The notes: a model not told the origin generated them from the sequence alone. A stretch of 64,000 nucleotides of DNA from Candidatus Parvarchaeota archaeon (GCA_017608505.1 JAFCFT010000001.1:5833-69832); one strand, 5' to 3'. Counted from the stretch's first letter, positions 1 through 30,134 are shown. Made by a program: numbers and translations.

Positions 1-1
1 A

Positions 2-3077: not shown

Positions 3078-3141
3078 TTATGGTCTGTTATGAATCAAGA
3101 TCAACATTAGAAAATTAAGATTCTAATTACATGCTCAATTA

Positions 3142-3924: not shown

Positions 3925-5039
3925 TTTAATACCTCCTTAAACATTTTATTGAATCCCTTTGCCGTGTTACTAACAGAAAAATTATTTTCAACGAATTTCC
4001 TTCCATATATGCCTTTCTTAATAATAAATTTATAATCCTTTCTCCATTTATTATAAACATATTGGATTTTGTTAGCTAATTCTTTAGCATTTAATTCTTT
4101 TAGAAACCACCCATTTTTCCCATTTAAGATTAATTTATTTGGTCCAGGAATATTTGAGCTAATTACTGGTAATCCGCAGGAGTTTGCTTCTGTTATAATT
4201 AAGCCGAATGTTTCTTGCCTAGAAGGTGCCAATAATACATCATTGTTCTGATATATTTTAACAATATCATCTACGAATCCTAAATAATTAACTTTGTCAT
4301 TTTTGGCAAGCTCTTCAACCAATCTTCTTTTTTCACCCGATCCAACAATATTAAATTCAACTTTTGCTTCTGGATTTTCTTCTAAAAATCTTTTAATGCC
4401 CTCCACTAATATGTCAACTCCTTTTTGTTCAGCAAGTCTTCCAACGAATAGAAATTTTAGTCTTGAAGTTTTTTTAAATTTTTTCAATTTAAAATCGTCT
4501 GTATTACTTCCTGAAGGAATGTAGTATACTTTTTTAATACCCCATTTTTTCATAATATTTTTGTCCTTATCATTTAAAACATGAATTGCATCAAATTTTT
4601 TAAGCACCCTTTTTGTAATTAATTTGACGTATGTATTGTGAATTTTGTTTTCAAAGAAGAGTGGGGCATGGATACCACATATCATTGGTTTTTTTACTTT
4701 TCTTTTAACGAGATACATTAATATATCTTGGAATATAAACGAGAAATTAAAATACAAAAGATCATACTCTTTAAAGATATTTGCTATTTCTTTGATATTG
4801 TGTACTTTTGGTAGCAATATATTATTCCTAACAAATTCATTGATTCTGTAATGTTTTACATTTTTTATTTTTCCTTTAACTTCTTTATCACTCCATCTTT
4901 TAATAGGGATGAAATTTGTGTCGATTATGTCTATTTGCATATTATATTTATTGATTAAAATATTTGACAGTTCTGAAAACCAATTTTCACACCCGCCACC
5001 ATAGTTTAATGACATAGGTGTATAAAATATGGCTTTCAT
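3918..5039 (-). CDS. Family-4 glycosyltransferase (GT4)
   Basis: FVGRLAEQKGVDIL...PSRQETFGLIITEANSCGLPVISS (E-x7-E). Confidence 0.8.
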   Translation of the reverse strand: MKAIFYTPMSLNYGGGCENWFSELSNILINKYNMQIDIIDTNFIPIKRWSDKEVKGKIKNVKHYRINEFVRNNILLPKVHNIKEIANIFKEYDLLYFNFSFIFQDILMYLVKRKVKKPMICGIHAPLFFENKIHNTYVKLITKRVLKKFDAIHVLNDKDKNIMKKWGIKKVYYIPSGSNTDDFKLKKFKKTSRLKFLFVGRLAEQKGVDILVEGIKRFLEENPEAKVEFNIVGSGEKRRLVEELAKNDKVNYLGFVDDIVKIYQNNDVLLAPSRQETFGLIITEANSCGLPVISSNIPGPNKLILNGKNGWFLKELNAKELANKIQYVYNKWRKDYKFIIKKGIYGRKFVENNFSVSNTAKGFNKMFKEVLKC

Positions 5040-5293
5040 TTTTCACCACCTGTTTTAAATATTCTGCTGATTATATTTTTTTTCATTTAAATGAATGTTT
5101 ATATGCTCTTTAACAATGAAATTTTTTAATATTTTTGATTTTTTGCTATTTAAAATTTTTTAAAAAGTTTTAAGCTAATAAAAAAGAAAAGACTTTAAAT
5201 AGAATTTATTGTTGCGGGTTTTAGAAATTTATATAAGGTTTTTGAAGAATTAAACATATTCGACGCTAGTAAAAAAATTTGGCCTGATGTATT

Positions 5294-7930
5294 ATGCATA
5301 AAAAAAATTTAGAACTGTTTGTATTATGTTTCTTTGTTATTATCCTATATTTTAATAAAATTTATTTTAATTTAGAACCTATTACGTGGGGCGATTGGTC
5401 TTTTGGATTTAATAACAAACTAAAGGATTATTTTAGAATGCCATCTGCATGGGATAATTCTGTGAATGGAGGTTATCCTACATTTATTAATTTGTATTAT
5501 TATCCCATGTTTTTTTTATTTTCACTAATAGGACTTCTAGGATTTGATTCATCAGTAACTACTCGTTTATTTTTTTATTGGCCATACCCTATTGTATCTA
5601 TAATTTCAATGTATGTTTTTTCCTATTATTTTTTTAAAAATAGAAAAGTAAGTTTTATTGCATCCTTTATTTATTCTATTAATCCTTATTCTTTAGTATT
5701 CTTGTCCGGAGGACATATGACTGTTGGGATGGGAAATGCTTATGCGCCTTTGATTTTGTATTTTTTTATAAAAAGTATTAGAGAAATTAAATTAAAATAT
5801 GTAATCATCTCCGGATTGCTTTCAGAATTCGTTTTTATTTACGAACCAAGAATATTCTTTTTAATATTTTTGTTTCTTTTATTACCATTTTGTTTATTTT
5901 ATTCAATAAATAAAAAATTTAATTTAAAAAAATTATTTTTTAATACTAAAGTTCTAGTTGGGATCATATTTATTTTATTATTAACTAATTTTTATTGGAT
6001 TTTGCCCCTCATAAGATTTGGTCAAGCGGAATTATTTAATTTTCCAGAGGGTTATAAACAACCCACATGGGTAAGTGCTTTAAGTTATTCTAATTTTTAC
6101 AATATGTTTTTCTTTGTATCAGAATTTTGGTTGTCTAATAATTGGTGGGGTGTTTTTAGTGAGAGATCATTACCAATAATTTATGTTATGTCTCCTATTT
6201 TTTTAATAATGCCTGTTTTATTATTTCTTCCTATTTATAAAATGAAAGATAAAAAAATAATATTTTTAACTATTCTATTGTTAATTTCTTTTTTTTTGGT
6301 GATTGCAGCAAATTCACCCCTAAAATTTTTATACATTCTCTTATTTTTGTTTCTTCCCGGATTTAACATGTTTAGAGACCCTTCTAAATTTTATTTAGTA
6401 TATAATTTTGCTGGTTCCATATTGATTGGTTTTGGTGTTATGATTCTTTTTAAATTTTTAAAAAGAAAATTAAATATCAAAAAATTTGGTTTTTTGTTTA
6501 ACAACTATCATATACTTTGGATTATGTTGTATATAGTTATGTTGTTGCCAGCTACATTAGAATTACCTTACGGAATGTTTAGTACACATCCATATTCTAC
6601 AGAAAAAATTAATATGAAAAATTGGTTGTTAAATAATTCAGCTCCTCATTATAAGACTCTATGGGTTCCTGATTATCAACATTTTATTATGCATGATTCT
6701 TTACATCCTGAAATCTCTCTAAGATCATATAGTTATTTTGGAGAATATATTAAAAGAAATATTGAAAATATTACTATGTTTGGCAAATTACTTTCACCAT
6801 TAAATGTCAGATACATTTTTTTAAGTCCTGACGAAGACGATTATCAATATTCTAATATGAAAAAAAATGATTTTTTAAAAATATTAGAAAAAGATTCGAG
6901 TATTCAAAAAATAAATGATAACATCTTTGAAAATAAATACGCCTTTGATTTATTGTCGCTAAAACCAAACGCATTTTATCTAATTGGTGATTTAGGGTCA
7001 TATATTAAATTATTAAATAAAACAAAATTAAATAATAATGTTGTTATTTTTTTTGGAGAAACTGATTTTGTAAATACGGATACTAATGTAGATTATTACA
7101 TAATCGATAATTCTTCTTGGAGTGCTGACGATTTAATTCTTTCATTAGTTAATGATAGTTATAAAACGTACTTTTGGAATTTGGCTGGTTATTTAACAAG
7201 GAACAATAATATTTTATATAAGGATTTTTACCCTGATGCAAATTATATTTATGGACAATTTTCAAAACATGGCTTGACCAAACATGTTGGAAAAACTATA
7301 TTGAGTATTAAGCATTATGTAAATTCTTCTGGAGTTTATCAAATATGGATTCGCGGATTCTCAGGCATAAATAGGGGCACGATATCTTTTAATGACGCTA
7401 AAATTGTTTTTAATTCTTCATTAAACAAACTAAAATGGTTTTATTTGACTAAAGTTACATTGAATAAGGGTGAAAGTTTTCAATTAAACTTAGAACTTCA
7501 AGGGATTCTTGATCTAGATAGTGTAGCGATAGTTCCTGAAAATATTGTTGAAAATATAAAATCTAAAATAAAACAAAAAATAATTAATCTTTCTGAATTC
7601 GATAATCTATCAAATGAGAATGATGTAATTTCTAAATTAAAATGGTATTATATTTCACCTTCTGAATATAAATTTATAATTGAAAATGCAAGTAGTAAAT
7701 TAATTTTAATATTCGGTAATAATTATAATCCTTATTGGCGAATGTTGATAAATAATGAAACATATCCTTCAATAAAGTGTTATTACACCCTTAATTGCTT
7801 TCCAATTAATATAAGTAGCTCTTACTTAGAAGGGAGAATTTATTTTTTACCTCAAAGTTATGTTGATTTAGGATTCCTGATTTCCATAGTTTCATTTATT
7901 GTGTTGCTTGGTCTTCTGGTTATTTTATAA
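5294..7930 (+). CDS. Large polytopic membrane protein (878 aa), putative GT-C-like glycosyltransferase or glycan polymerase; function unknown
   Basis: About 12+ hydrophobic segments in the first ~430 aa, then a ~400-aa hydrophilic N-x-S/T-rich domain and one terminal TM. The N-terminal block is homologous to ORF 12064-15726 (INPYSLVFLSGGHMTVGMGNAYAPLILYFF vs LNPLVFNKIVAGHVTYLFSYMLAPLLFLAF). Confidence 0.55.
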   Translation: MHKKNLELFVLCFFVIILYFNKIYFNLEPITWGDWSFGFNNKLKDYFRMPSAWDNSVNGGYPTFINLYYYPMFFLFSLIGLLGFDSSVTTRLFFYWPYPIVSIISMYVFSYYFFKNRKVSFIASFIYSINPYSLVFLSGGHMTVGMGNAYAPLILYFFIKSIREIKLKYVIISGLLSEFVFIYEPRIFFLIFLFLLLPFCLFYSINKKFNLKKLFFNTKVLVGIIFILLLTNFYWILPLIRFGQAELFNFPEGYKQPTWVSALSYSNFYNMFFFVSEFWLSNNWWGVFSERSLPIIYVMSPIFLIMPVLLFLPIYKMKDKKIIFLTILLLISFFLVIAANSPLKFLYILLFLFLPGFNMFRDPSKFYLVYNFAGSILIGFGVMILFKFLKRKLNIKKFGFLFNNYHILWIMLYIVMLLPATLELPYGMFSTHPYSTEKINMKNWLLNNSAPHYKTLWVPDYQHFIMHDSLHPEISLRSYSYFGEYIKRNIENITMFGKLLSPLNVRYIFLSPDEDDYQYSNMKKNDFLKILEKDSSIQKINDNIFENKYAFDLLSLKPNAFYLIGDLGSYIKLLNKTKLNNNVVIFFGETDFVNTDTNVDYYIIDNSSWSADDLILSLVNDSYKTYFWNLAGYLTRNNNILYKDFYPDANYIYGQFSKHGLTKHVGKTILSIKHYVNSSGVYQIWIRGFSGINRGTISFNDAKIVFNSSLNKLKWFYLTKVTLNKGESFQLNLELQGILDLDSVAIVPENIVENIKSKIKQKIINLSEFDNLSNENDVISKLKWYYISPSEYKFIIENASSKLILIFGNNYNPYWRMLINNETYPSIKCYYTLNCFPINISSSYLEGRIYFLPQSYVDLGFLISIVSFIVLLGLLVIL

Positions 7931-9073
7931 AAGTTTTTTGTATATTTCAAAAATTTTATCAGCAGTATATTCTATTGTATATTTTTTTAATAATTTTTTA
8001 GCTTCAACGACCAACTTTTTCCCAAGCTGTTCGTTTTCTAATAATTTTAATATTTTATTAGATAGATCATTCACGCTGTCGTATTTAAATAATAAAGCGG
8101 TTTTGTTATTAAAAAACCCATTTGTATAGAAACTCTTAGGAATTATTATTGGTGTATTATTGGCTATTGCTTCAAAGCCAACTTTGTTTGGTTGAGATAT
8201 TCCTGGATCACACAGGGCAAATGCTTTTTGCAAATTTTCAAAAACTTTGTTTCTTGGCAAACCCCCTTTAAATTCAACATATTTGGTTAATCCTAATTTT
8301 TTTGTTATATTCAATAATTCTTGTTTGTAAGGACCCTCCCCTATTATTACAACTTTTATTTTCTTTTTTATTTTGCTATTTACTATTTGTAATGACTTTA
8401 TTAACATTTGAAAATTTCTTTCTTTAACTAAAACTCCCACTGCGCAGATGTGTCTTGATTTTTTCTTTTTTATTCTTCCTGAATTTTTAATTAAGGAATT
8501 AGTTATTGTAGGAGATAAAACAATAATTTTATTTTTTGGAATGTTCATCTTTTGGGATACTATCTCTTTCATAAATGGATTATATAAAATTACAATATTC
8601 GCATTTTTGACAGTTCTTTTATAAAGATAGTATAACATGAAATTTTTAATTTTGTAACTAATCTTTTTTGTTTTTTGCAATAGTGGCATTCTAGGTCCAT
8701 ATTGTGGACCCATTACTGTAGATATTTTTGTTTTGAATATAGATAGCAGGTCAAAAGTTCTTGTAAAACATAAAGGACCTATTCTATGGTATATTTTTAT
8801 TTTTTCTTTTTTAATAATCTTCTTTGCTATATAGTATGCTTTTATGTTAAACCACAGTCTTTGGAAAATATTTGGGTCTCGAATATACTTATTAAATATT
8901 TTATAAATTTTCCAATTATTTTTGCCTTTAATTGCGGTGTACCCTGCTATTACATATGGTTTTACTCCTTTTTTTTCTAGTCTACTAATTAGCTCGAAGC
9001 AAGTTCTTCCTTCAGAGTCGTGTATATCGTCCCTATTATGTAGCAAGTAGTTACCAACAAAGAGTACTTTCAT
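7925..9073 (-). CDS. Family-4-like glycosyltransferase (divergent)
   Basis: Two-Rossmann GT-B layout: MKVLFVGNY..., VVIIGEGPYKQEL, CDPGISQPNKVGFEAIANNTPIIIP (degenerate E-x7-E). Last gene of a minus-strand operon. Confidence 0.6.
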   Translation of the reverse strand: MKVLFVGNYLLHNRDDIHDSEGRTCFELISRLEKKGVKPYVIAGYTAIKGKNNWKIYKIFNKYIRDPNIFQRLWFNIKAYYIAKKIIKKEKIKIYHRIGPLCFTRTFDLLSIFKTKISTVMGPQYGPRMPLLQKTKKISYKIKNFMLYYLYKRTVKNANIVILYNPFMKEIVSQKMNIPKNKIIVLSPTITNSLIKNSGRIKKKKSRHICAVGVLVKERNFQMLIKSLQIVNSKIKKKIKVVIIGEGPYKQELLNITKKLGLTKYVEFKGGLPRNKVFENLQKAFALCDPGISQPNKVGFEAIANNTPIIIPKSFYTNGFFNNKTALLFKYDSVNDLSNKILKLLENEQLGKKLVVEAKKLLKKYTIEYTADKIFEIYKKLL

Positions 9074-9085
9074 AAAGATTACCTC

Positions 9086-10183
9086 TTATGTTAAGAATTC
9101 TTTTATACACTCACAGATAAATAAGCATTCCTCTTTTTTTAATTCAGGAAACATTGGTAAAGATAAAATTTTCTTAGACAAGTCTTCTGTTATTCTATAA
9201 CTTTTATTATTAAATTCTTTATAAGCGTCTTGTAAGTGTATTGGAATGGGATAATGTATTCCGGTAGATACTCCTTTATTTTGAAGGTATTTTTGGAGTT
9301 CATCTCTATTATTGCACTGTATTACATATAAATGATAAACATGTTCTGAATCTTTATGTTCGAATGGTGTTTTAATAGTATTAATTTCTTTTAGGAGCTT
9401 AGTATACATTTTAGCATTTTCTCTTCTTTTTTCATTCCATTTATCCAAATATTTTAATTTAACATCTAAAATTGCTGCTTGCAGAGTGTCAAGTCTACTA
9501 TTTGTGCCTTTAATTATATGATGATATTTTATTTTTTGACCATAGTTTCTAAGCAATTCTATTTTTTCAGCTAGTTCTTCATTATTTGTTGTCACAGCAC
9601 CACCGTCTCCATACGCTCCCAAGTTTTTCCCGGGATAAAAACTAAAACACGCTATGTCCCCAATACTTCCCACTTTTTTGCCTTTATATTTTGCTCCATG
9701 TGCCTGGCAAGCGTCTTCAATAACAAATAAATCATTTTCTTTCGCAATTTCTAAAATTTCATCCATTCGCGCAGGTTGACCATACAAATGTACTGGAAGG
9801 ATGGCTTTTGTTTTATCCGTTATTGCTTCTTTGATTTTTGAAACATCTATATTATAATCTTTTGGATCTACATCTACGAATACTGGTTTTGCACCACATG
9901 CTGAAATTGCCAAGGCCGTTGCTATATACGAATTCGGAGGAGTAATTACTTCATCTCCTTTGCCAATTCTTATTGCTTTTAATGCAAGAGTTAATGCGTC
10001 TGTGCCGGATCCAACTCCTATACAGTATTTTGTATTACAAAGTTTTGCAAAATTTTTCTCAAAATTAAATACCTCTGGTCCAAGAATAAAACTTGTGCTA
10101 TCAATTACTGATTGGATTGCGCTATTAACTTCTTCTTTAATTGATATATATTGTCTTTTTAGATCAACAAAATTAATTTTCAT
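9086..10183 (-). CDS. DegT/DnrJ/EryC1/StrS-family PLP-dependent sugar aminotransferase (WbpE/GnnB-like)
   Basis: [66 protein letters not shown]; [18 protein letters not shown] (PLP-lysine region). Confidence 0.85.
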
Positions 10184-10185
10184 AG

Positions 10186-10965
10186 TTAATATTCTTTTAT
10201 TCTATTTTCAAGCCATCTTTCTTTAGGTACATTTTTTATTTTTCTTGCTGGATTCCCAACCCACACTTCTCTATCAGGAACATCTTTTGTAACAACAGCC
10301 CCAGCACCAATGACAGCATCTAAGCCTATGGTTATAGCAGATAAGATAGACGCATTTGAGCCTATTGTTGCTCCGTCTTTAACAGTTGCACCTTTGTATA
10401 CGTATTCTACAGTATCCATATATTTATCATTCATAGTACATACTTCTGGTCCAAAAAACACATATCTTCCTATTTTTAAATTTCCTGTTAAGTGACAAGC
10501 AGTTTGTATTTTTGTATGATCCATTATCTCTGTTTCATATTCTATTGTTGTTCCTCTTCCAATTATTACATAATCATGTATGTTACATTTTTCCCTTATT
10601 GACGCTAAGTCCCCAATAAAACATTTATTCCCTATTTTAGTTCCTCCATAGATTATTGATCCTGTTCCTATTAAAGTTCCATATCCAATTTCCGCAATTA
10701 AGAGTTTCTTAGAAGCTTTTCTTGAACTAATCGGACTAGACCTCGGTTGTTTTCCGATGACCACATTATCTTGGACTTCTATGTCCTCCTTCAAAATAGT
10801 TTCTTCTTTTATAACTATATTATTTCCTAAATAACAATTATCTCCAATTATCGCTTTTCTTTCAATAACTACATTAAAACCAAATTTGACATTTTCTCCT
10901 ATCTGCGCGTCTTTATGTATTGCTATGTTTTTGGCAGGTATTATTTTATACTCATCAAATTCCAT
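10186..10965 (-). CDS. Left-handed beta-helix (hexapeptide-repeat) acetyltransferase, WbpD-like
   Basis: Repeated [LIV]G-x4 hexapeptides throughout ([51 protein letters not shown]). 2-nt gap to the aminotransferase. Confidence 0.75.
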
Positions 10966-11016
10966 TTTATAATCGGATAAGTATATTCATTTATAAGTTT
11001 TATTGTTGTAAAGTTT

Positions 11017-12048
11017 CTAAAGCTTATAATCTAATGACTTTATTTCGATATATTTACCATTACTTTTTAATGATTTCTGCGCAGATTCTAATATATTAGT
11101 TATTAATAACCCTTCTAGTGCATCTGTTTTTGGTTGTTTATCATTTATTAAGCAATCTAGAAAATGTTTACACTCTTCTTTTAGCGGTTCTTTTATAGGC
11201 ACCTTGGGTATTATTATGTCCCCATCTCTTATGCTAATCTGAAATTCACCAAAGTCTGGACATACTTGATTTCCTGATTTAATTACTCCTTTATCAAATA
11301 TTTTTATAGGTTCTGATTTATTAATGTCATTAAAGACAACCATCTTTTTATCTCCTACAAAAGTAGTTTCCCTAATCTTTAGAGGACCCAACCAACTAGC
11401 GTTAATATTCATTTTAACTTTGTTCGGATAATACAATGTCAAAAAAACCACATCTTCAATACCTTTTTGTAGATAATCTTCTCCTTGCGCGATAACACCT
11501 ATTGGATTCTTTTTGAAGACATATTGAAATATAGTAATGTCATGTATTGCAAGGTCCCACATTGCGTTGACATCTTTTCTAATAGGCCCGAGGCCCATTC
11601 TAGTGGAGTAAGCGTAATACATTTTTCCTAGTTTGTTCTTGTTAACAAGTTCTCTAAGATACTCTACAGCGGGGTTGTATTCAAAAATATGGCCGACCAT
11701 TACTTTTTTGTTTTTTTCTTTAGCTAATTTAATTATTTCAATACCATCTTTGATACATGTAACAAAAGGTTTTTCAACTAATACATTTTTATTATGTTCT
11801 AATGATTCCCTAATCAATTTGTAATGTGTTGTTGCAGGCGTAGCGATTAACACTCCATCTATAGCTTTATCATTAAGTATTTTGTGATAATCCAACACCG
11901 GCTTAACATTATAAGTCTCACTAATATTTTTGCATTTGTCAATATCCAAGTCACAACAATATATCAATTCCGCTTCTGGCAATTCATTTAGAACTCTTAC
12001 ATAATTTGGACCCCAACGTCCGCAACCGATAATTCCAAGTTTTACCAT
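11017..12048 (-). CDS. Gfo/Idh/MocA-family NAD(P)-dependent sugar oxidoreductase (WbpB/GnnA-like)
   Basis: N-terminal Rossmann KLGIIGCGRWGPNY; VLVEKPF (EKP motif). Confidence 0.8.
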   Translation of the reverse strand: MVKLGIIGCGRWGPNYVRVLNELPEAELIYCCDLDIDKCKNISETYNVKPVLDYHKILNDKAIDGVLIATPATTHYKLIRESLEHNKNVLVEKPFVTCIKDGIEIIKLAKEKNKKVMVGHIFEYNPAVEYLRELVNKNKLGKMYYAYSTRMGLGPIRKDVNAMWDLAIHDITIFQYVFKKNPIGVIAQGEDYLQKGIEDVVFLTLYYPNKVKMNINASWLGPLKIRETTFVGDKKMVVFNDINKSEPIKIFDKGVIKSGNQVCPDFGEFQISIRDGDIIIPKVPIKEPLKEECKHFLDCLINDKQPKTDALEGLLITNILESAQKSLKSNGKYIEIKSLDYKL

Positions 12049-12063
12049 TTTAAGAATTTAAGC

Positions 12064-15000
12064 TTATCTTTTATTCTTAAATTTTGCGCTTTTAATTAAA
12101 GTACCAATAATGAGTAACATGTATGCAATGAATAATGTGTAATTGGTAAAATACCTTAATTTAAACGATTTAATTACAAATATTGCTCCTAAAGGTATTA
12201 AGTGTATATAAACAATAATTAATGCTATTGTTAAACACCATTTTTCAAGATGTTTAATGGATAGAATTCTTTTGTAATATAAAAAAATCTTTGATTTTTC
12301 AAATTCTTTAATTATCATTTTTTCTTGATTGTTAAAACTCTTTTTAAATTTTAATTTATATATGTTAAGTCTTTTATTTTTTGAGCATAGCCAAATAAGA
12401 ATATATAAAGTAAAAATTTTGAAAATAATTTTAGTTATAATTATTGTTTGAATAATCTCTTTATGTAAGAAAATAATTAGTAAGATTAAAAGAGTGAACA
12501 ATGAAAGTATAATATGTGTATAATATGTTTCTTGTTTTTTGTAAATAATACTGACTGTAAAATTTCCCGTTTTATTAATGTAATATGTGTTAGCAAAGCC
12601 ATTAACTTTGTAGTGTTCGAAAGTTGTTCTGTCTGATTCAGCAATCCAAGCAGAATCATAAGAACTTGAGAATACAAGGAAGAAGGGTTTGCTAGAATTA
12701 ACATTAACTATATAATTTGTTGGATTTAATTTAGAAAACGAAATGTGTGGTCCATATTGTTTTGTGCTTTCTTCTTTATGTTTAGTTAGTATAATGTTGT
12801 GTATTTTAGCATATGTTGTTGCATTGAATTCTAAAGAGGATATGTTAAATTCTCCAAGAGAGATAATGGCTGGTTTGCTTGAGTTAATGAATATAGATCT
12901 ATTTTGATTGTTCAATGAAATGTTGATAAGGCCTGTGCCAGATACAGAAAGGCTGATATTGTAAATATCATTTTTAATGTTTGTCTTTTTATAATAATGA
13001 TTTAAGAGCAATTCTTTTGGATAGAATGTTGCATTGCGAATCCAAAATGAGTAAAAATTGTTAGGAGCGTCAACTATCCACCATTTATGCAAGTAAAAAT
13101 AGATTGCGTCAATGTCGTTTAATGATTTATTTAGTAAGTTAGCATACTCGCTGATGTTTATTGTGATTGTGCTGTAACCTGTAGTATAAGAGAGAGGGTC
13201 ACTTGCGAGAATTTTGCTGGTATTTTTAAAATGTAATCCAAACTGCAATGTTTGAATTGATTTGTCTTCTAGCATGAATTCAAATTTTAGAATTGGGAAA
13301 TTAGAAATGTTAAAGTCAATTGGAATTCTCAATAAGAAATATTCGTCTACACTTTCATTTTGATAAAAATGAACATCGAAACGCCAAGTATTGTTGTTTA
13401 TTAAAATGTTTGGTCTGCAGTTAATTTCGCAGCCGTAAACTCCATAGGAGCTGGTTAGTATATTAGGAATTTTATTTTGGAAAGGAACATCATATTTGTC
13501 AGGAGTAAAAGCGTAATCCATGGATGGGTGAATTAAAGAAGTTGCAATAGCAATACTTGAAATTGCTGCTTCGCCTTGACTGATAAATTCAATGAATTTT
13601 TCTGATGAAATGTTTGCAATTTTATGCCAAGAAATGCTTGAAGAATTAATTGAGAATGTTGCATTATCTATTTTGATTAAGATAGGGCCAAGAGATTTTA
13701 TGTAAAGTGTTCCTGTGGTACTAATTGGTACTTTAAGGGTTGAATTAGGAACTAGTGTTAAAATAGATGAATCAATATGGCTAGAGTATTTTGGATTGTA
13801 CCACCACCAGCCAAATGAGTAATCAAAGAAACGAGCCCAGCCAGCTGATGCATTACTATTGGTTACAAAGTCAGATGGTTTGTATTTTGTTGCGTTAATT
13901 AGCTGAATGTCTAATGGGTCTGAAGCAATTATATCATCAACTATTTCTATTAATTGAGTATTGGCTTGGGAAGCAAAGAAAATGGCGGGCTTTGAAGAAT
14001 TAAGAGAATCATAGTTAGTAAGTATGTCTAAATTTGAAGACGTAAGAATACTCTTGTCAGCAGCATAAATAATAGGCGAATAGTTAGGAACTTCAAAAAT
14101 GTGAACATTTGAATATTGTTTGTTTGTTATGGAAACTTCTGGAAGCAGTTTTTTAATATATTCTGTTTTAGATTTGCTGTATTGAGAGGAAATTGTAGGG
14201 AAATATTGCATGTATGAGTAATTCCAAAATTTGGAGCTGAAGTCATCGCGTGAAATGATATACTTTATGTTTAGTATTCTAAGAAGATCTTGGAGATTAT
14301 TAGGAGACTCGTAATTGATGAGATTTGAAAGGTAAGCAGTGATTCTATTTGGATCTGTTTCAAGACTTATATATTGGTTAAGTGATGGCTTTGGTGAAGT
14401 GGTAATCATTGGGTCTACGCCAGGGTATTTTAAATTTTTGGGATGCATTGGTTGGTTCATTGGCAGGTAAAGCACCCTGTAATTGTTTGGATCGTTGTTT
14501 AGAGATAGCATTATTTCGCCGTAAGATTTGTCCCATTCGTAAATTTGGACTTGATTCATAAAATTTCCGGAGAGGAGTGGGTAAGAAAAAAGGACAATAG
14601 CAAGAACGAACAAAGGCAACAATTTTTTGTTTTTAAACAATTCGTAACTCGAGCCAAAAAGGACCGCATATGCAAAAGCAGGAATAAATAATAAGTGATG
14701 AACTTCTCTAAAAATTCCAATAAATGGAATTTTTAAGAATAATTCACCAAAAGGAGGATTTGCGCCTTTAGAAAGAAACAGTCCAATTATAGCAAGCATG
14801 ATGAAAAACCATACAAACTTTTTCTTAGATTTAATGTTTAAAAGCAATAATAATAGAATTGTTATGCCTCCAGTAAGAAATGGAATTAAGCCCACGCCCC
14901 AAACAGCGTCGACAAAATATGTAGTTCCTAAAAGAAACGGAACAGCGATTATGGGAGGTGATCTTCGGGCAATGACGTCGACACTTGTTCCTGTTTGGAT

Positions 15001-15726
15001 GTATGATGTTGTTTCTTGTATGTTTAATATTTTAGGAAGGATCCATGGGGAGTGTACTAGAAATCCAATAGAAATAATAAATAAAGAATTGGTAATCAAT
15101 GTTTTATCTTTCATGAAGAGTGAATAGAAAATTAATAAGCATGGAATCATGATGATGAATTGAAGTTGTGTAAATACTAAAGGACAAAGAAGCGCAGCAC
15201 CAAATATGTATTTTTTTTCATTCTTTGATTTTAAGAATGCAAGGAATAATAAAGGAGCAAGCATGTAAGAAAAAAGATATGTTACATGTCCCGCAACAAT
15301 TTTGTTGAAAACAAGTGGGTTCAAGGAGTAGAGAAGGCCGGAGAGAAAAGCAGAACCTAATTTTTTGAAATAGTGTTTTGAAAGAAAAAACATAAAAAGC
15401 GCAGAACCAAAAATAAAAGAGAATACTAAAAATTTAGTCATAAAGACGCCTCCAGCGCCATAAAGCGCTGGGGTACAAGTAATTAAAACATAAAGATATG
15501 GACTTGCGTAGGGGAGTTCCATTCCAAAATTATCTTCTTGCCAAGCATAGAACATTTTATATATTTGACTTGAAATCATATAAGCATATTGTGGGTATCC
15601 CCAATCATGTCGGTATCCTATAGGCCCATATTTTAGTAACAGTTGCCAAATGGATAGCAAAGCGAGGGTGATGTATACTATTATTATAGTCCAGATTTTC
15701 ATTGATTTGTATTTGTCTCTTTTCAC
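12064..15726 (-). CDS. Giant polytopic membrane protein (1220 aa), putative GT-C-like enzyme with large sequon-rich extracytoplasmic domain; function unknown
   Basis: N-terminal ~420 aa multi-TM domain paralogous to 5294-7930. The ~600-aa hydrophilic middle contains 23 N-x-S/T sequons by my count. About 4 further TM helices at the C-terminus. First gene of the operon carrying the WbpB/D/E-like trio. Confidence 0.55.
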   Translation of the reverse strand: MKRDKYKSMKIWTIIIVYITLALLSIWQLLLKYGPIGYRHDWGYPQYAYMISSQIYKMFYAWQEDNFGMELPYASPYLYVLITCTPALYGAGGVFMTKFLVFSFIFGSALFMFFLSKHYFKKLGSAFLSGLLYSLNPLVFNKIVAGHVTYLFSYMLAPLLFLAFLKSKNEKKYIFGAALLCPLVFTQLQFIIMIPCLLIFYSLFMKDKTLITNSLFIISIGFLVHSPWILPKILNIQETTSYIQTGTSVDVIARRSPPIIAVPFLLGTTYFVDAVWGVGLIPFLTGGITILLLLLLNIKSKKKFVWFFIMLAIIGLFLSKGANPPFGELFLKIPFIGIFREVHHLLFIPAFAYAVLFGSSYELFKNKKLLPLFVLAIVLFSYPLLSGNFMNQVQIYEWDKSYGEIMLSLNNDPNNYRVLYLPMNQPMHPKNLKYPGVDPMITTSPKPSLNQYISLETDPNRITAYLSNLINYESPNNLQDLLRILNIKYIISRDDFSSKFWNYSYMQYFPTISSQYSKSKTEYIKKLLPEVSITNKQYSNVHIFEVPNYSPIIYAADKSILTSSNLDILTNYDSLNSSKPAIFFASQANTQLIEIVDDIIASDPLDIQLINATKYKPSDFVTNSNASAGWARFFDYSFGWWWYNPKYSSHIDSSILTLVPNSTLKVPISTTGTLYIKSLGPILIKIDNATFSINSSSISWHKIANISSEKFIEFISQGEAAISSIAIATSLIHPSMDYAFTPDKYDVPFQNKIPNILTSSYGVYGCEINCRPNILINNNTWRFDVHFYQNESVDEYFLLRIPIDFNISNFPILKFEFMLEDKSIQTLQFGLHFKNTSKILASDPLSYTTGYSTITINISEYANLLNKSLNDIDAIYFYLHKWWIVDAPNNFYSFWIRNATFYPKELLLNHYYKKTNIKNDIYNISLSVSGTGLINISLNNQNRSIFINSSKPAIISLGEFNISSLEFNATTYAKIHNIILTKHKEESTKQYGPHISFSKLNPTNYIVNVNSSKPFFLVFSSSYDSAWIAESDRTTFEHYKVNGFANTYYINKTGNFTVSIIYKKQETYYTHIILSLFTLLILLIIFLHKEIIQTIIITKIIFKIFTLYILIWLCSKNKRLNIYKLKFKKSFNNQEKMIIKEFEKSKIFLYYKRILSIKHLEKWCLTIALIIVYIHLIPLGAIFVIKSFKLRYFTNYTLFIAYMLLIIGTLIKSAKFKNKR

Positions 15727-15779: not shown

Positions 15780-17225
15780 TTGAAAAAACAGATGGAAGAA
15801 AGTTATGACTCGATTTTTGGGAGAGAGTCTACAATTAAAGAAGTAAAAATAACACATGAGATGCTTCCCTTAACAATAAATGAAAATATTACTAAAAATG
15901 CATTAAATAAGGGTGCTGAAGAAAATAAATGGGTGTTGGCGTTTGTGGTAGGAACTAAACCCTGTTTTTACAAGTTCTATGGGTCAATAATTGCTGCAGA
16001 GAAGCATAATATTCCTTACATAGTGATAAATGCAAACCAGCATTATGATGATAATTTAACATATGGTATTAAGGAATTTGGAATAAATGTTGCTTGTAAT
16101 CTAAATATTAGGGGCGGATTGCTTAAAAAATCAGTAGAATTGTTACTGAAGTTCAAGTGGTTATCTGATTATTTTGAAAGAATAAATGAAAAAGCAAAGG
16201 TTGTACCTGTGGTTTTAGGCGATACAATACTAACTAGTATTGTGCCTGCTGCATGGATGTTTACTAGAAATGAAAAGGCTATACAAAATGAAGCAGGATT
16301 AAGAGCTATGGCTCCCACAGTGTTAAAAGATAAAAATGTGAGTTTTGAAGAGTTTTATAAAAAGCAAGCAACAGGTAATTGGATGCTTTTAAGAAATGAG
16401 CCGTTTCCAGAACAGTGGGATACATATGTGTCTGCTGCAGGGTGCGAATATTTATTCGCACCAACAGAATTAAATAAAAAACACTTGTTAAGAGAGGGGT
16501 ATAACGAAAACAATATTTATGTGACTGGCGGTGTAGTAGTAGAAGCTTTAGATTTAAAATTAAAGGAAAAACCAAGGAGGAGTATATTTGAAGTTTATCC
16601 GGAATTAAGTAAGGGTGAATGGATAAGAGTAGATATTCACAGGAGAGGAAACTTAACACCTACAAGATTTAAGGCAATAATAAGTGGAATTAAAAAATTG
16701 GTTAAAAGTGGATACAAAGTTAATTTTATAGAAATGAACGCTACAAAATATGCAATAAACAAATATGGTTATAGGGGTGTACTGAACAAGTTAAAAGAGA
16801 ACAAGAACTTTTTAATGACCGATGTGTGGCCCGAATATTCTAATGTGGTTGAATTTTATAAGTCAAAAAATTGCTTGACGGCATTTACAGATAGTGGTGG
16901 GGTGCAAGAAGAAATGAATTTATTAAGTAAACCATGTCTTACGTGCAGATTTAATACTGATAGGCCAGAAACGGTAATGGACGCAAAAAGTAATTTATTA
17001 GTTCCGCCTAAAAGTGGAGAATTTATATTTGATTCTATAAATTACTTAGTAAAAAATGGAAAATTGGATGAATTGTCAAAAGGAAAGAAAATTTATGGGA
17101 AAAATGTTGGTGAAAAATTTATATTGGTAATAAAAGACTTAATGAAACAGAACAAAAGTTTGTTTAATTGGGCTCATGACGTATTGGGATATGAAGAAGA
17201 AAAAATTAATCCAGACTTTTTATAA
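15780..17225 (+). CDS. UDP-N-acetylglucosamine 2-epimerase-family protein (WecB/WbpI-like) with N-terminal extension and insertions
   Basis: VVGTKPCFYKF (GTRPE-like), IQNEAGLRAM (EAGLR), FTDSGGVQEE (DSGG[IV]QEE). TTG start at 15780; first ATG at 15792. Confidence 0.8.
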   Translation: MKKQMEESYDSIFGRESTIKEVKITHEMLPLTINENITKNALNKGAEENKWVLAFVVGTKPCFYKFYGSIIAAEKHNIPYIVINANQHYDDNLTYGIKEFGINVACNLNIRGGLLKKSVELLLKFKWLSDYFERINEKAKVVPVVLGDTILTSIVPAAWMFTRNEKAIQNEAGLRAMAPTVLKDKNVSFEEFYKKQATGNWMLLRNEPFPEQWDTYVSAAGCEYLFAPTELNKKHLLREGYNENNIYVTGGVVVEALDLKLKEKPRRSIFEVYPELSKGEWIRVDIHRRGNLTPTRFKAIISGIKKLVKSGYKVNFIEMNATKYAINKYGYRGVLNKLKENKNFLMTDVWPEYSNVVEFYKSKNCLTAFTDSGGVQEEMNLLSKPCLTCRFNTDRPETVMDAKSNLLVPPKSGEFIFDSINYLVKNGKLDELSKGKKIYGKNVGEKFILVIKDLMKQNKSLFNWAHDVLGYEEEKINPDFL

Positions 17226-18940: not shown

Positions 18941-19807
18941 ATGAAAGAGCTTGTAGTGTTGCTTCCTACGTTAAATGAGGAAAAGGGCGTTGCAAGAGTA
19001 ATAAGGCAAGTGCCTGTTACGAAGTTGAAGAAATTGGGGTTTAAGACAAAGATATTAGTGGTGGACGGGCACAGCAAGGATAAGACTAGGGAAGTAGCAG
19101 AAAAGTTAGGTGCCAAAGTGATTTTGCAAAAAGGGAAAGGCAAAGGCATGGCGTTTAGGACTGCTTTGCATGAGTTAAAGAAAAATCCTCCAGATGCGCT
19201 TGTAATGCTTGATGCAGACAATACTTATGATCCTAAAGAGATGCCGCAGTTATTGCTGCCAATAGTGATAGAAGAAGCAGATGTTGTTATGGGTGCGAGG
19301 GAAATAAAGACGCACAAAACAGGAAATAAGATTTTGACTGCAGCAGCAAAAATGGCTTTTAAGCATAATATAAAAGATTTATGCACAGGGTATTGGGCGT
19401 TTAATGAGGAGGCAATAAGAAAAATACAAGTGGATGCTAAGGGTTTTGATTTGGAAAGCGATTTGTTTGCCAAGGCAAATAAAGAGGGCTTAAGGATAAA
19501 AGGAGTGCCTGTAAGTTACAGGAAAAGGGTGGGGGAAAGCAAGTTAAGGATAAGCGACGCTTTTAAGATAGTTGGGAGGATAATAAGGAATGTAAGGGAC
19601 TGGAATCCTTTGGCTTTGTTTGGAAGCTTGGGGACTTTAGGGCTCGGCCTTGCGTTTTATTTTGGATTAAGGGTTATTGAAGATTATATGAAGAGAGGGT
19701 ACGTCGTTGCAGTAAGCACTGCAATATTGACTGCAATTTTAGGAATCACAGGATTCTTTTTTTTGACAATAGGGTTGATGCTTGATTTCTTGGAGAGAAG
19801 GGTATGA
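18941..19807 (+). CDS. GT2 polyprenol-phosphate hexose synthase-like protein (DPM1/GtrB/AglD-like) with two C-terminal TM helices
   Basis: VVLLPTLNEEKGVARVI...VVDGHSKDKTREVAEKLGAKVI...GKGKGMAFRTA...MLDADNTYDP. C-terminal TMs LALFGSLGTLGLGLAFYFGL and AILTAILGITGFFFLTIGLML. Confidence 0.7.
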   Translation: MKELVVLLPTLNEEKGVARVIRQVPVTKLKKLGFKTKILVVDGHSKDKTREVAEKLGAKVILQKGKGKGMAFRTALHELKKNPPDALVMLDADNTYDPKEMPQLLLPIVIEEADVVMGAREIKTHKTGNKILTAAAKMAFKHNIKDLCTGYWAFNEEAIRKIQVDAKGFDLESDLFAKANKEGLRIKGVPVSYRKRVGESKLRISDAFKIVGRIIRNVRDWNPLALFGSLGTLGLGLAFYFGLRVIEDYMKRGYVVAVSTAILTAILGITGFFFLTIGLMLDFLERRV

Positions 19808-28694: not shown

Positions 28695-30134
28695 TTATAT
28701 ATGTTTATTACTTCTTTTTGGTAATAATATTTTTCTAAGTAAGCTCTTGAACAAAGTTTTGTCTTCTTTGTCAAATACAAAGTAATTTATGCAAACAAGA
28801 TATGTTATTGCGCCAAGCAGGTAAATAATTGCTTTGTAAATAAATGCTGTCTCAATAAGCAGTCCAGGAAGTATTGTTAGATTTAATAAGATGACTATAA
28901 AATATGTTTTTAAAGGATGTTTAATCCTCTTTTTTAGGATTGTATTTAAGAAGACGAATGAAGCCATTATTGATATTAAGTAAGCGACTGCAGCGCCAAA
29001 AGCCAGATAATTAATGGCTAGTGGAATCAAACATACAATTATTAAAGTCCTAATGATGTAGTTGATTAACACATATAATGGCTTTCCAATACCGTATGCA
29101 ATCGATTCAAAAAATTGATTATATGCTGAAAAAAATATTGCAATAATCATAATTTTTAATACATTGCTCATGGCTAAGTAATTGGCTCCTAAAAGTAAAC
29201 TGATTGTTAAATTTGTTGCAAGGGCAAATGTTAAACACATTGGTAAAATGGCGATTAAAAAATATTTCATAATGCGTTGTGTGATTTCTCTAATATCTCC
29301 AATACTTGCTTTTGGAATGTTTGGCCATACCGCAGTTGCAAGCGCGGTTGGTATAAGGAATATTAATAAGCTAATTCTATTTGAGGCGTCAAAATATCCT
29401 AATTGAGCAGTGTTAAATCCTAAAGCAAGATTTAATAAGTAGTTAGATAAAAAAAAGAATATAGAACCAGCATATGAAATTAATGAGTATTTGATTAATT
29501 TGCCCTTGTTGAATTTATTAGCAGTTTTGCGCCAATATTTTTTATGTATTATAAATACAAAAAAGAAGATGCAAGACAATAAGTAACTGATTCCATATCC
29601 AACTAGTGCTCCGATGATGCCAAGTCCTAAAAGTACGAAGATTACGGCCAAAAATTTAAGCAAGTTAAATGTTATGTCAAGGTACATTCCATATTTTAGT
29701 TTTTTAAATGCCATAAACACATACGGGTACAATTGAAGGAACATGAACGGCGTTGTAATAATAGCAACTATTTTTAAGTAATAGTTAAGTTCTGGATTGC
29801 CATACAATGAACTGATGATTCCTGATGAGAAAAAAAGGATTGTGCAAGCAGCTAAAATTATAATGAATTTTATTTTAAAGACAAATTTGAGAATGCTTGA
29901 ACTTTTGTTCAAATATTTTGGAATAAAATAAGGCAAAGAAGTATCTAATCCTAAGGAAGTGAATTGATGAAGCATAAATATAAAAGTTGTACTTAAGCTA
30001 AGAAGCCCATAATTGCTTGGCCCAAGATATCTAGCAAGCAGGTATACAACCAGCATTGATAAAATTGCAGAAACTGTTTTGCCAATTAGATGCCATAAAG
30101 CATTTTTTCCAATCTCTTTTACTTGGATACTCAT
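28695..30134 (-). CDS. MOP-superfamily oligosaccharide/polysaccharide flippase (Wzx-like)
   Basis: 479 aa with ~12-14 TM helices. N-terminus NALWHLIGKTVSAILSMLVVYLLARYLGPSNYGLLSL is typical of polysaccharide biosynthesis (Wzx/RfbX) proteins. Confidence 0.7.
   Translation of the reverse strand: MSIQVKEIGKNALWHLIGKTVSAILSMLVVYLLARYLGPSNYGLLSLSTTFIFMLHQFTSLGLDTSLPYFIPKYLNKSSSILKFVFKIKFIIILAACTILFFSSGIISSLYGNPELNYYLKIVAIITTPFMFLQLYPYVFMAFKKLKYGMYLDITFNLLKFLAVIFVLLGLGIIGALVGYGISYLLSCIFFFVFIIHKKYWRKTANKFNKGKLIKYSLISYAGSIFFFLSNYLLNLALGFNTAQLGYFDASNRISLLIFLIPTALATAVWPNIPKASIGDIREITQRIMKYFLIAILPMCLTFALATNLTISLLLGANYLAMSNVLKIMIIAIFFSAYNQFFESIAYGIGKPLYVLINYIIRTLIIVCLIPLAINYLAFGAAVAYLISIMASFVFLNTILKKRIKHPLKTYFIVILLNLTILPGLLIETAFIYKAIIYLLGAITYLVCINYFVFDKEDKTLFKSLLRKILLPKRSNKHI

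What the first reader, a model, noticed from the sequence alone, without database searches (positions are those of the whole stretch)
5294..15726. Two paralogous giant membrane proteins with an unrecognised N-terminal polytopic domain and sequon-dense extracytoplasmic domains
ORFs 5294-7930 (878 aa) and 12064-15726 (1220 aa) share a conserved polytopic N-terminal module. Compare ASFIYSINPYSLVFLSGGHMTVGMGNAYAPLILYFF with SGLLYSLNPLVFNKIVAGHVTYLFSYMLAPLLFLAF, and AWDNS..GG with AWQEDNFG. I cannot assign this module to a named family by eye. Each continues into a large hydrophilic domain closed by further TM helices. That layout resembles mycobacterial AftD (GT-C plus carbohydrate-binding modules). 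The 1220-aa protein carries 23 N-x-S/T sequons (x not Pro) in its ~480-aa distal region by my count, so it may be both enzyme and heavily glycosylated substrate. It is the first gene of the operon encoding the WbpB/D/E-like sugar pathway and a GT4. AT-biased composition inflates Asn content, so the sequon density needs a composition-matched control.
Basis: partly seen in the sequence, partly recalled or inferred. Interest (0 to 1): 0.6.

Follow-up and report, generated by a model that had tools for sequence, protein, structure and literature searches.

The report
Divergent YfhO/AftD-type membrane glycosyltransferase paralogs
Two large membrane proteins of a tiny DPANN archaeon are distant relatives in a huge, unnamed family of sugar-transferring enzymes that work outside the cell, so this is a well-supported new member of a known enzyme kind and not a new kind of system.

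Summary
ORF A (5294-7930, +, 878 aa) and ORF B (12064-15726, minus strand, 1220 aa) are homologous over their whole length. BLASTP gives E=3e-7 and the family profiles give E=1e-56. A third full-length copy lies just upstream of the window.

The "unrecognised" N-terminal module is a GT-C-fold glycosyltransferase. AlphaFold models of both proteins hit mycobacterial AftD (6W98) first, then STT3/PglB, DPY19 and AftA. Profile comparisons tie the family to YfhO-annotated proteins (E=8e-41 and 2e-27) and to proteins carrying the AftD Pfam domain (E=6e-42). Neither Pfam model scores A or B themselves.

The family has about 30,000 representatives at 50% identity, almost none covered by Pfam. It occurs in DPANN archaea, Bathyarchaeia, a Methanocaldococcus, CPR bacteria and Chloroflexota, always in glycan gene clusters.

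The sequon claim survives the control: 23 N-x-S/T in residues 576-1055 of B against about 8 expected (z about 6), and only 5 reversed motifs. Other large proteins of this genome are equally enriched, so this marks an N-glycosylated ectodomain, not a special property of B.

The operon link to the WbpB/D/E-like genes is real here but absent next to the closest ortholog.

The likely role is transfer of sugar from dolichol-phosphate donors to a surface glycan on the outer face of the membrane. Interest is modest.

The parts
5294..7930 (+). Paralog A, 878 aa: a YfhO/AftD-type GT-C glycosyltransferase.
   Evidence: Intact ORF. AF2 model has pLDDT 73.5 and pTM 0.74. Foldseek top hit is AftD 6W98, E=8e-12, TMq 0.55. 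hhalign to YfhO-annotated proteins gives E=8e-41.
5294..6583 (+). A, residues 1-430: polytopic GT-C membrane module. It holds the conserved loop-1 Asp34 (5393-5395) and the P-G-F-x-x-F-R-D-x-x-K motif (F360, R361, K365; about 6356-6391).
   Evidence: In 101 relatives F360 and R361 are invariant, and D34, W53, N130, R186, W235 and K365 are kept in at least 90%. Helices come from the model. The module has no sequons.
6584..7867 (+). A, residues 431-858: extracytoplasmic domain. A mixed alpha/beta part is followed by beta-sandwiches of carbohydrate-binding-module type. All 12 sequons lie here.
   Evidence: Secondary structure. Foldseek sub-hits to CBM6/CBM35 and other beta-sandwiches. Relatives carry Pfam CBM_4_9 or Laminin_G_3 in this region. 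Sequons.
7868..7927 (+). A, residues 859-878: single C-terminal TM anchor.
   Evidence: Hydropathy and model helix 854-877.
12064..15726 (-). Paralog B, 1220 aa from GTG (probably 1212 aa from the ATG at 15702): a YfhO/AftD-type GT-C glycosyltransferase.
   Evidence: Foldseek top hit is AftD, E=8e-11. hhalign to the YfhO set gives E=1.7e-27. hhalign to the A family gives E=1.2e-56.
14527..15726 (-). B, residues 1-400: GT-C membrane module with invariant Asp41 (H-D-W) and F339-R340 (F-R-E).
   Evidence: Invariant columns in 7 orthologs. These residues align with the Asp and the F-R motif of YfhO proteins.
12523..14526 (-). B, residues 401-1068: extracytoplasmic domain. It ends in the conserved beta-sandwich (about 990-1062).
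   Evidence: Model: residues 400-600 and 990-1062 are confident, 603-990 are not modelled. The C-terminal block is conserved in all orthologs.
12556..14001 (-). B, residues 576-1057: sequon-dense stretch with 23 N-x-S/T.
   Evidence: Sequon positions 611, 1010 and 1051 are shared by 5-6 of 7 orthologs.
12757..13569 (-). B, residues about 720-990: variable insert missing from most orthologs.
   Evidence: Alignment occupancy falls to 1.5-3 of 6 orthologs. No paralogous copy elsewhere in the genome.
12067..12522 (-). B, residues 1069-1220: four C-terminal TM helices, reminiscent of the second membrane domain of AftD.
   Evidence: Hydropathy. AftD architecture is taken from bioRxiv 10.1101/2019.12.22.885152. 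This part is only partly conserved in orthologs.
11017..12048 (-). GFO/IDH/MocA oxidoreductase, WbpB-like. Its best family match is archaeal UDP-GlcNAc 3-dehydrogenase. It lies 15 bp downstream of B.
   Evidence: E=2.8e-58, below the equivalog cut-off.
10186..10965 (-). Hexapeptide-repeat sugar N-acetyltransferase, WbpD-like.
9086..10183 (-). DegT/DnrJ/EryC1 sugar aminotransferase, WbpE-like.
   Evidence: E=8e-130.
7925..9073 (-). GT4 glycosyltransferase, the last gene of the B operon. Its stop overlaps the 3' end of A.
15780..17225 (+). UDP-GlcNAc 2-epimerase-like gene, divergent from B. It is the only neighbour also kept next to the closest B ortholog.
   Evidence: The L008 copy is 72% identical and in the same arrangement.
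18941..19807 (+). AglJ-like GT2, a candidate dolichol-phosphate-hexose synthase that could make the lipid-linked donor for GT-C enzymes.
   Evidence: AglJ E=3e-61; Dol-P hexose transferase E=1e-25; both below the equivalog cut-offs.
28695..30134 (-). Wzx-type (Polysacc_synt) flippase candidate.
   Evidence: No GtrA-type flippase was found in the genome.

Best explanation
A and B, and a third copy just outside the window, are catalytically competent GT-C-fold glycosyltransferases. They belong to a very large, uncurated family that lies between bacterial YfhO and mycobacterial AftD.

The N-terminal bundle of about 11-13 helices would bind a polyprenyl (dolichol) phosphate-linked sugar in the membrane. 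The conserved Asp of the first outer loop (D34 in A, D41 in B) would act as the catalytic or metal-binding residue. The invariant F-R-(D/E)-x-x-K motif would hold the lipid phosphate. The beta-sandwich ectodomains would hold a glycan acceptor on the cell surface.

The enzymes would therefore add sugars to an already exported glycan on the outer face of the membrane. The acceptor could be an N-glycan on surface proteins or a surface polysaccharide or lipoglycan. This is the archaeal counterpart of the bacterial multi-component transmembrane glycosylation systems (GT2 lipid-sugar synthase, flippase and GT-C enzyme). The ectodomains are themselves N-glycosylated by the AglB enzymes of the same island.

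Shown: homology, fold, conserved residues, sequon excess and glycan-cluster context. Inferred: donor type, acceptor, catalytic roles of the residues and actual glycosylation.
For: Homology of A and B.

GT-C fold: AftD 6W98 is the best Foldseek hit for both models, followed by STT3, PglB, DPY19 and AftA.

Profile links:
- A family against 18 proteins, 17 of which pass Pfam YfhO: E=8e-41 over 629 columns, including the C-terminal sandwich.
- B family against the same set: E=1.7e-27.
- A family against two proteins that pass Pfam GT-C_AftD: E=6e-42.
- The YfhO set against the AftD-type pair: only E=3e-12, so this family bridges the two.

The weak NCBIfam MmpA hit of B fits this, because MmpA is reported to be homologous to the AftD membrane part (PMC8698533).

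Conserved Asp and F-R motif.

Context: relatives lie in glycan clusters. In three bacterial loci an AglJ/DPM-like GT2 lies directly downstream. The window itself has an AglJ-like GT2, a Wzx-like flippase and two AglB genes.

Sequon excess with conserved positions.

Mechanistic template: the review PMC8035078 and the AftD structure paper.
Against: - No sequence-level hit to any solved structure, even with profiles of 20, 7 or 101 sequences.
- The Pfam YfhO and AftD models find nothing in this genome at E<=1.
- Residues 603-990 of B are not modelled, and I had no model coordinates, so the conserved residues were not placed in the AftD active site.
- An exact TM topology could not be derived.
- No GtrA-type flippase is present.
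- A GT2 lipid-sugar synthase is not adjacent to A or B. The nearest is 3.2 kb from B.
- Archaea have no teichoic acids or arabinan, so the acceptor is unknown.
- The operon partners of B differ in its closest ortholog.
- There are no expression or biochemical data.
Confidence: 0.72

Rival explanations
1. The proteins transfer or polymerise whole lipid-pyrophosphate-linked oligosaccharide units, acting like an oligosaccharyltransferase, an O-antigen ligase or a polymerase, and do not add single sugars from dolichol-phosphate donors. B would then be the final assembly enzyme for the glycan built by its own operon (2,3-diacetamido sugar pathway plus GT4).
For: B heads an operon with a nucleotide-sugar pathway and a cytoplasmic GT4. 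The island has a Wzx-type flippase, the kind that moves oligosaccharide units. No dedicated polymerase was recognised. STT3/PglB are the next-best structural matches.
Against: Two STT3/AglB genes already cover the transfer to protein. A and B lack any STT3 Pfam signal, and by direct reading of the translations neither contains a WWDxG motif. The closest characterised relatives, YfhO and AftD, use monophosphate-linked single sugars. The operon link is not conserved.
Confidence: 0.15
2. They are non-catalytic GT-C-derived scaffolds or lipid/glycolipid handling proteins. This has been proposed for the AftD-like protein MmpA of corynebacteria. The lectin-like ectodomains would then serve surface attachment.
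For: B has a weak hit to the NCBIfam MmpA model. MmpA has no shown catalytic activity (PMC8698533). DPANN archaea depend on contact with hosts, and the ectodomains look lectin-like.
Against: The loop-1 Asp and the F-R-x-x-x-K motif are invariant or nearly so across about 100 distant relatives and are shared with YfhO proteins, which indicates a conserved active site. The MmpA score is 43 bits against a cut-off of 210. The gene context is biosynthetic everywhere.
Confidence: 0.06
3. The similarity of A and B is a composition artefact of AT-rich, hydrophobic sequences, and the sequon density reflects only Asn/Ser/Thr richness.
For: The genome has 25-33% G+C in this region. Pairwise identity is only 27% and lies in TM segments.
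Against: Profile-profile E=1e-56 extends through the soluble domains. The two models independently find the same structure. Shuffles that keep global or local composition never reach the observed sequon count, and the reversed motif is 4-5 times rarer.
Confidence: 0.01

Closest known systems
AftD, mycobacterial arabinofuranosyltransferase D (PDB 6W98, 6WBX, 6WBY; Pfam PF11847 GT-C_AftD)
   Same: It is the best structural match for both models. It shares the same order of parts: N-terminal GT-C helix bundle, soluble GT-C domain, beta-sandwich carbohydrate-binding modules, then a return to the membrane. In B the return is a further helix bundle, as in AftD TM12-16. Both have an essential or conserved Asp in the first outer loop.
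   Different: There is no detectable sequence match to AftD chains, and PF11847 does not score A or B. A is much smaller (878 aa against about 1400) and has one terminal helix. There is no evidence for acyl carrier protein binding. No arabinan or decaprenyl-phospho-arabinose is known in archaea.
YfhO (Pfam PF09586), the GT-C enzyme of the CsbB/GtcA/YfhO teichoic-acid glycosylation systems of Bacillus, Staphylococcus and Listeria
   Same: Full-length profile homology, including the N-terminal Asp, the P-G-x-x-x-F-R motif, the C-terminal S-E-x-Y-x-x-x-W ... N-G-F beta-sandwich and the last TM helix. It is a similar size to A. It probably follows the same logic: a lipid-phosphate sugar donor and a polymer acceptor outside the cell (PMC8035078).
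   Different: PF09586 does not score A, B or the third copy, even at E<=1. There is no csbB-type GT2 directly adjacent and no GtcA/GtrA flippase in the genome. The host is an archaeon without teichoic acids.
AglB/STT3/PglB oligosaccharyltransferases (GT66)
   Same: Same GT-C fold class, and the second tier of Foldseek hits. They are encoded twice in the same island.
   Different: A and B have no STT3 Pfam signal, and the translations show no WWDxG motif. The ectodomain is made of beta-sandwiches and is not the STT3 core domain.
MmpA (NCgl2761/Rv0226c; NCBIfam NF053599)
   Same: Weak similarity of B residues 93-448 to the model. MmpA is itself related to the AftD membrane part.
   Different: The score is 43 bits against a cut-off of 210. 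MmpA is about 470-540 aa and has no large lectin-like ectodomain.

Membership tests
GT-C fold glycosyltransferases (structural superfamily) | Polytopic N-terminal helix bundle whose fold matches solved GT-C enzymes | tested here: met
   For both models, every Foldseek hit of more than 500 aligned columns at E<=1e-3 (E<=2e-3 for B) is a GT-C enzyme: AftD, STT3, PglB or DPY19, with AftA at E about 1e-2. Probability is 1.00.
GT-C fold glycosyltransferases (structural superfamily) | Conserved acidic residue in the first extracytoplasmic loop | tested here: met
   D34 (A) and D41 (B) follow TM1. D41 is invariant in 7 B orthologs and D34 is kept in at least 90% of 101 relatives. Both align with the Asp of YfhO proteins. 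Their position in a 3D active site was not checked.
GT-C fold glycosyltransferases (structural superfamily) | Use of a lipid-phosphate-linked sugar donor on the outer membrane face | not testable with these tools
   Inferred from the family only. Candidate donor synthase (AglJ-like GT2) and flippase are present in the island.
YfhO (Pfam PF09586) | Score above the Pfam gathering threshold | tested here: not met
   No hit for A, B or the third copy at E<=1. Only 1 of 53 close family representatives hits it.
YfhO (Pfam PF09586) | Profile-level homology over the full length to proteins that pass the YfhO model | tested here: met
   A family: probability 100, E=8e-41, 629 columns. B family: probability 99.8, E=1.7e-27, 344 columns. 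17 of 18 comparison sequences pass PF09586.
YfhO (Pfam PF09586) | Genetic pairing with a CsbB-type GT2 and a GtrA-type flippase | tested here: not met
   No GtrA family hit in the genome. The AglJ-like GT2 is 3.2 kb from B and is not adjacent. Adjacency is seen in only 3 of about 46 related loci.
AftD (Pfam PF11847 GT-C_AftD) | Score above the Pfam gathering threshold, or a sequence match to AftD chains | tested here: not met
   No hit. No PDB sequence hit, even with profiles.
AftD (Pfam PF11847 GT-C_AftD) | Overall architecture: GT-C bundle, soluble GT-C domain, CBM beta-sandwiches and C-terminal membrane return | tested here: met
   Whole-chain Foldseek alignment with TMq 0.55 (A) and 0.46 (B). 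Secondary structure and TM predictions agree.
AftD (Pfam PF11847 GT-C_AftD) | Arabinofuranosyl transfer from decaprenyl-phospho-arabinose; bound acyl carrier protein | not testable with these tools
Archaea are not known to make these substrates (general knowledge).
STT3/AglB oligosaccharyltransferase (GT66) | STT3 Pfam domains and the WWDxG motif | tested here: not met
   No PF02516 or PF21436 hit for A or B, while two other ORFs of the window hit them. No WWD motif is seen in the translations.

The most novel reading that the evidence does not exclude
The three deeply diverged YfhO/AftD-type copies might work with the two AglB, two PMT-like, one ALG9-like and one further GT-C-like protein of the same 46-kb island as an outer-face glycan assembly line in a genome of about 1 Mb. 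In that reading most of the surface glycan is built outside the cell from dolichol-phosphate sugars. Each lectin-bearing paralog would add a different branch, and the heavily N-glycosylated enzymes would form part of the glycan coat that mediates contact with the host. The family's patchy spread (14 of 121 genomes of the phylum, and also CPR bacteria) would then reflect exchange of surface-glycan modules between episymbiotic archaea and bacteria.
Probability: 0.25. Interest if true: 0.55.

Novelty: new member of a known kind. Interest (0 to 1): 0.33.

Why it matters
The finding gives a name and a testable mechanism to two (in fact three) of the largest genes of a reduced DPANN genome. It also shows that a family of about 30,000 sequence clusters, almost invisible to Pfam and annotated as "hypothetical", connects YfhO with AftD inside the GT-C class. 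A curated model for this family would improve annotation of surface-glycan clusters in DPANN archaea, CPR bacteria and a cultured methanogen. It does not reveal a new kind of system. The enzymology is expected to follow known GT-C rules, and the same family has already been met several times in this scan.

Tried and rejected
- Single-sequence and profile searches of PDB sequences gave only chance hits.
- Pfam and NCBIfam gave nothing on A, B, the third copy or the Methanocaldococcus homolog, apart from the sub-threshold MmpA hit.
- Six-frame searches of the genome with the YfhO and AftD Pfam models found nothing.
One Pfam call exceeded the size limit.
- The idea that B is functionally tied to the WbpB/D/E-like pathway was rejected as a conserved feature. 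The closest ortholog keeps only the divergent epimerase and a nearby A-like paralog.
- The idea that sequon density singles out B was rejected: seven other ORFs show a larger excess.
- A GtrA-type flippase partner was looked for and is absent.
- The variable insert of B (about 720-990) has no paralog in the genome and no confident model.

Full report
**What is there**

The window belongs to a 0.92-Mb, 86%-complete genome of an AT-rich DPANN archaeon. The best ortholog of B comes from a Candidatus Nanoarchaeia MAG.

ORF A (5294-7930, +, 878 aa) and ORF B (12064-15726, minus strand, 1220 aa) are intact. B is listed from a GTG. Four orthologs start at the position of its Met9, and a TATA-like A/T box lies upstream, so the ATG at 15702 is the more likely start.

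Each protein has three parts:
- a hydrophobic N-terminal module of about 400-430 residues;
- a long hydrophilic domain;
- terminal TM helices, one in A and four in B.

**Are they paralogs?**

Yes.

I collected 19 relatives of A and 6 of B. The two family profiles align with probability 100%, E=1.2e-56, over 803 columns. The alignment runs from TM1 through the soluble domain to the last beta-sandwich.

The same profile finds a third full-length copy (865 aa) on the same contig, about 2 kb before the window. It also finds a distant 512-aa relative on another contig. The three copies share only about 20% identity, so they are old paralogs or separate acquisitions.

**What is the module?**

Pfam finds nothing in A or B. 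NCBIfam gives only a sub-threshold hit of B to MmpA, 43 bits against a cut-off of 210. MmpA is reported to be homologous to the membrane part of AftD (PMC8698533).

*Fold.* The AlphaFold2 model of A has pLDDT 73.5 and pTM 0.74. The model of B covers residues 1-1115 with pLDDT 59.8, and residues 603-990 are not modelled. Both models have mycobacterial AftD (6W98) as their best Foldseek match, at E=8e-12 with TMq 0.55 and at E=8e-11. The next hits are STT3, PglB, DPY19 and AftA, which are all GT-C enzymes. The ectodomain of A also matches CBM6/CBM35-type beta-sandwiches.

*Sequence profiles.* The combined family profile reaches proteins that carry Pfam YfhO, some of them named "YfhO family protein" by NCBI, and proteins that carry Pfam GT-C_AftD. 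The hhalign comparisons are:

| Comparison | E-value | Columns |
|---|---|---|
| A family vs 18 proteins, 17 of which pass PF09586 (YfhO) | 8e-41 | 629 (full length) |
| B family vs the same YfhO set | 1.7e-27 | 344 |
| A family vs two proteins that pass PF11847 (AftD type) | 6e-42 | 551 |
| YfhO set vs the AftD-type pair | 3e-12 | 342 |

The family therefore sits between YfhO and AftD. Earlier notes of this scan on relatives in other genomes called them "AftD-like, not YfhO". For the proteins here both links are about equally strong.

Membership in either curated family is not met. Neither Pfam model finds anything in this genome at E<=1, and PDB sequence searches with profiles fail.

*Conserved residues.* In 101 distant relatives F360 and R361 of A are invariant. 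D34, W53, N130, R186, W235 and K365 are kept in at least 90%. B has the equivalent D41 and F339-R340, and these align with the Asp and the F-R motif of YfhO proteins. In AftD a loop-1 Asp (D41) and nearby Lys residues are essential. I could not superpose coordinates, so the catalytic roles are inferred.

**Size and spread of the family**

An exhaustive HMMER search found the following numbers of representatives at 50% identity:

| E-value threshold | Representatives |
|---|---|
| <=1e-3 | 30,108 |
| <=1e-10 | 16,209 |
| <=1e-30 | 6,421 |

Of 53 top representatives, only a handful touch any Pfam family. Named members are "hypothetical protein" in NCBI, or occasionally "YfhO" in UniRef.

Relatives of B occur in Nanoarchaeia, Bathyarchaeia, Methanocaldococcus indicus, Aminicenantes, Saccharibacteria and other Patescibacteria, and Chloroflexota. 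In Micrarchaeota mostly the C-terminal block matches. Within the window's own phylum only 14 of 121 genomes have a hit at E<=1e-10, and no other sampled genome shows three full-length copies.

**Context**

B is followed at gaps of 15, 51, 2 and 12 bp by four genes:
- a UDP-GlcNAc 3-dehydrogenase-like oxidoreductase;
- a hexapeptide acetyltransferase;
- a DegT aminotransferase;
- a GT4.

The closest ortholog locus keeps the divergent 2-epimerase gene (72% identical) and an A-like paralog about 8 kb away, but not these pathway genes. The operon link is therefore local.

Relatives of A and B elsewhere always lie among GT2, GT4, methyltransferase and radical-SAM genes. In three bacterial loci an AglJ/DPM-like GT2 follows directly, as csbB does with yfhO.

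The window also has an AglJ-like GT2, a Wzx-type flippase, two STT3/AglB genes, two PMT-like genes, an ALG9-like gene and a weakly GT-C-like 801-aa ORF. That makes eight GT-C-type genes, as another first-stage note on this stretch said. No GtrA-type flippase exists in the genome.

**Sequons**

B has 26 N-x-S/T, and 25 of them lie in the ectodomain. Global shuffles expect 8.4 for residues 590-1070, which hold 22 (z=5.4). Local shuffles expect 7.7-7.9 (z=6.3, 0 of 5000 reach 23). The reversed motif occurs 5 times.

A has 12 sequons against 6.3-6.8 expected (p=0.013-0.024). Neither TM module has any.

Orthologs of B are enriched too (z=1.7 to 5.8), and positions 611, 1010 and 1051 are shared by 5-6 of 7.

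Across a crude set of 885 ORFs the observed/expected ratio is 1.17. B ranks 8th, and several large proteins are denser. The signal is therefore real selection for N-glycosylation sites, but it is the norm for this organism's surface proteins.

**Mechanism proposed**

By analogy with YfhO systems (PMC8035078) and AftD, the steps would be:
1. A GT2 loads a sugar on dolichol phosphate.
2. A flippase moves it outward.
3. The GT-C module, using the loop-1 Asp and the F-R-x-x-x-K motif, transfers it to a glycan held by the beta-sandwich modules.

The ectodomains are probably N-glycosylated by AglB. The fold and the family are firmly supported. The donor, the acceptor and the roles of the residues are inferred.

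**Verdict**

This is a divergent new member of a known enzyme kind. Its value is mainly for annotation.

Noticed in passing
Own genome contig C1, about 1264-3834 (-), roughly 2 kb upstream of the window start (locus L003:364-2961, -): A third full-length paralog (865 aa, P0029) of the same family, about 20% identical to A and B. It has no Pfam or NCBIfam hit.
   Followed up: partly
Own genome contig C18 (locus L005:655-2193, -): A 512-aa polytopic protein (P0030) with a weak match (E=3e-7) to the TM module of the family and no ectodomain. It is possibly a short GT-C relative.
   Followed up: no
window 38342-40747 (+): An 801-aa ORF with no Pfam or NCBIfam family. hhalign gives 79% probability (E=1.6e-5) to the N-terminal TM part of the A/B family, so it is perhaps another very divergent GT-C enzyme.
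   Followed up: partly
window 21944-23908 (+), 43218-45869 (-), 23898-25355 (-), 36734-38317 (+), 40707-42215 (-): Two STT3/AglB paralogs, two PMT/PMT_2-like proteins and an ALG9/GT22-like protein lie in the same island. With A, B and the 801-aa ORF that makes eight GT-C-type genes in 46 kb of a genome of about 1 Mb.
   Followed up: partly
window 30212-31687 (+); L017:3519-4982 (+): A B12-binding radical SAM enzyme lies in this island, and another lies in the Methanocaldococcus indicus cluster that holds the 974-aa family member. It may be a recurrent glycan-tailoring companion.
   Followed up: no
window 1-14000 compared with the rest: G+C is 25-31% over the first 14 kb (lowest, 25%, across gene A) against 32-40% elsewhere in the window. 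This fits a variable or horizontally exchanged glycan-gene segment.
   Followed up: no
Own genome: C21:27775-31905 (-), C4:29708-33736 (-), C17:38014-40308 (-), C11:18483-21299 (+), C5:15726-17741 (-): Other large ORFs have equal or stronger sequon excess (2.9-4.5 per 100 aa, z=4.3-6.0). They are candidate major N-glycosylated surface proteins.
   Followed up: no
window 15702-15726 (-): The GTG start of B is probably an over-extension. Orthologs align from Met9 (ATG at 15702), and an A/T-rich TATA-like box lies about 45 bp upstream of that ATG.
   Followed up: partly
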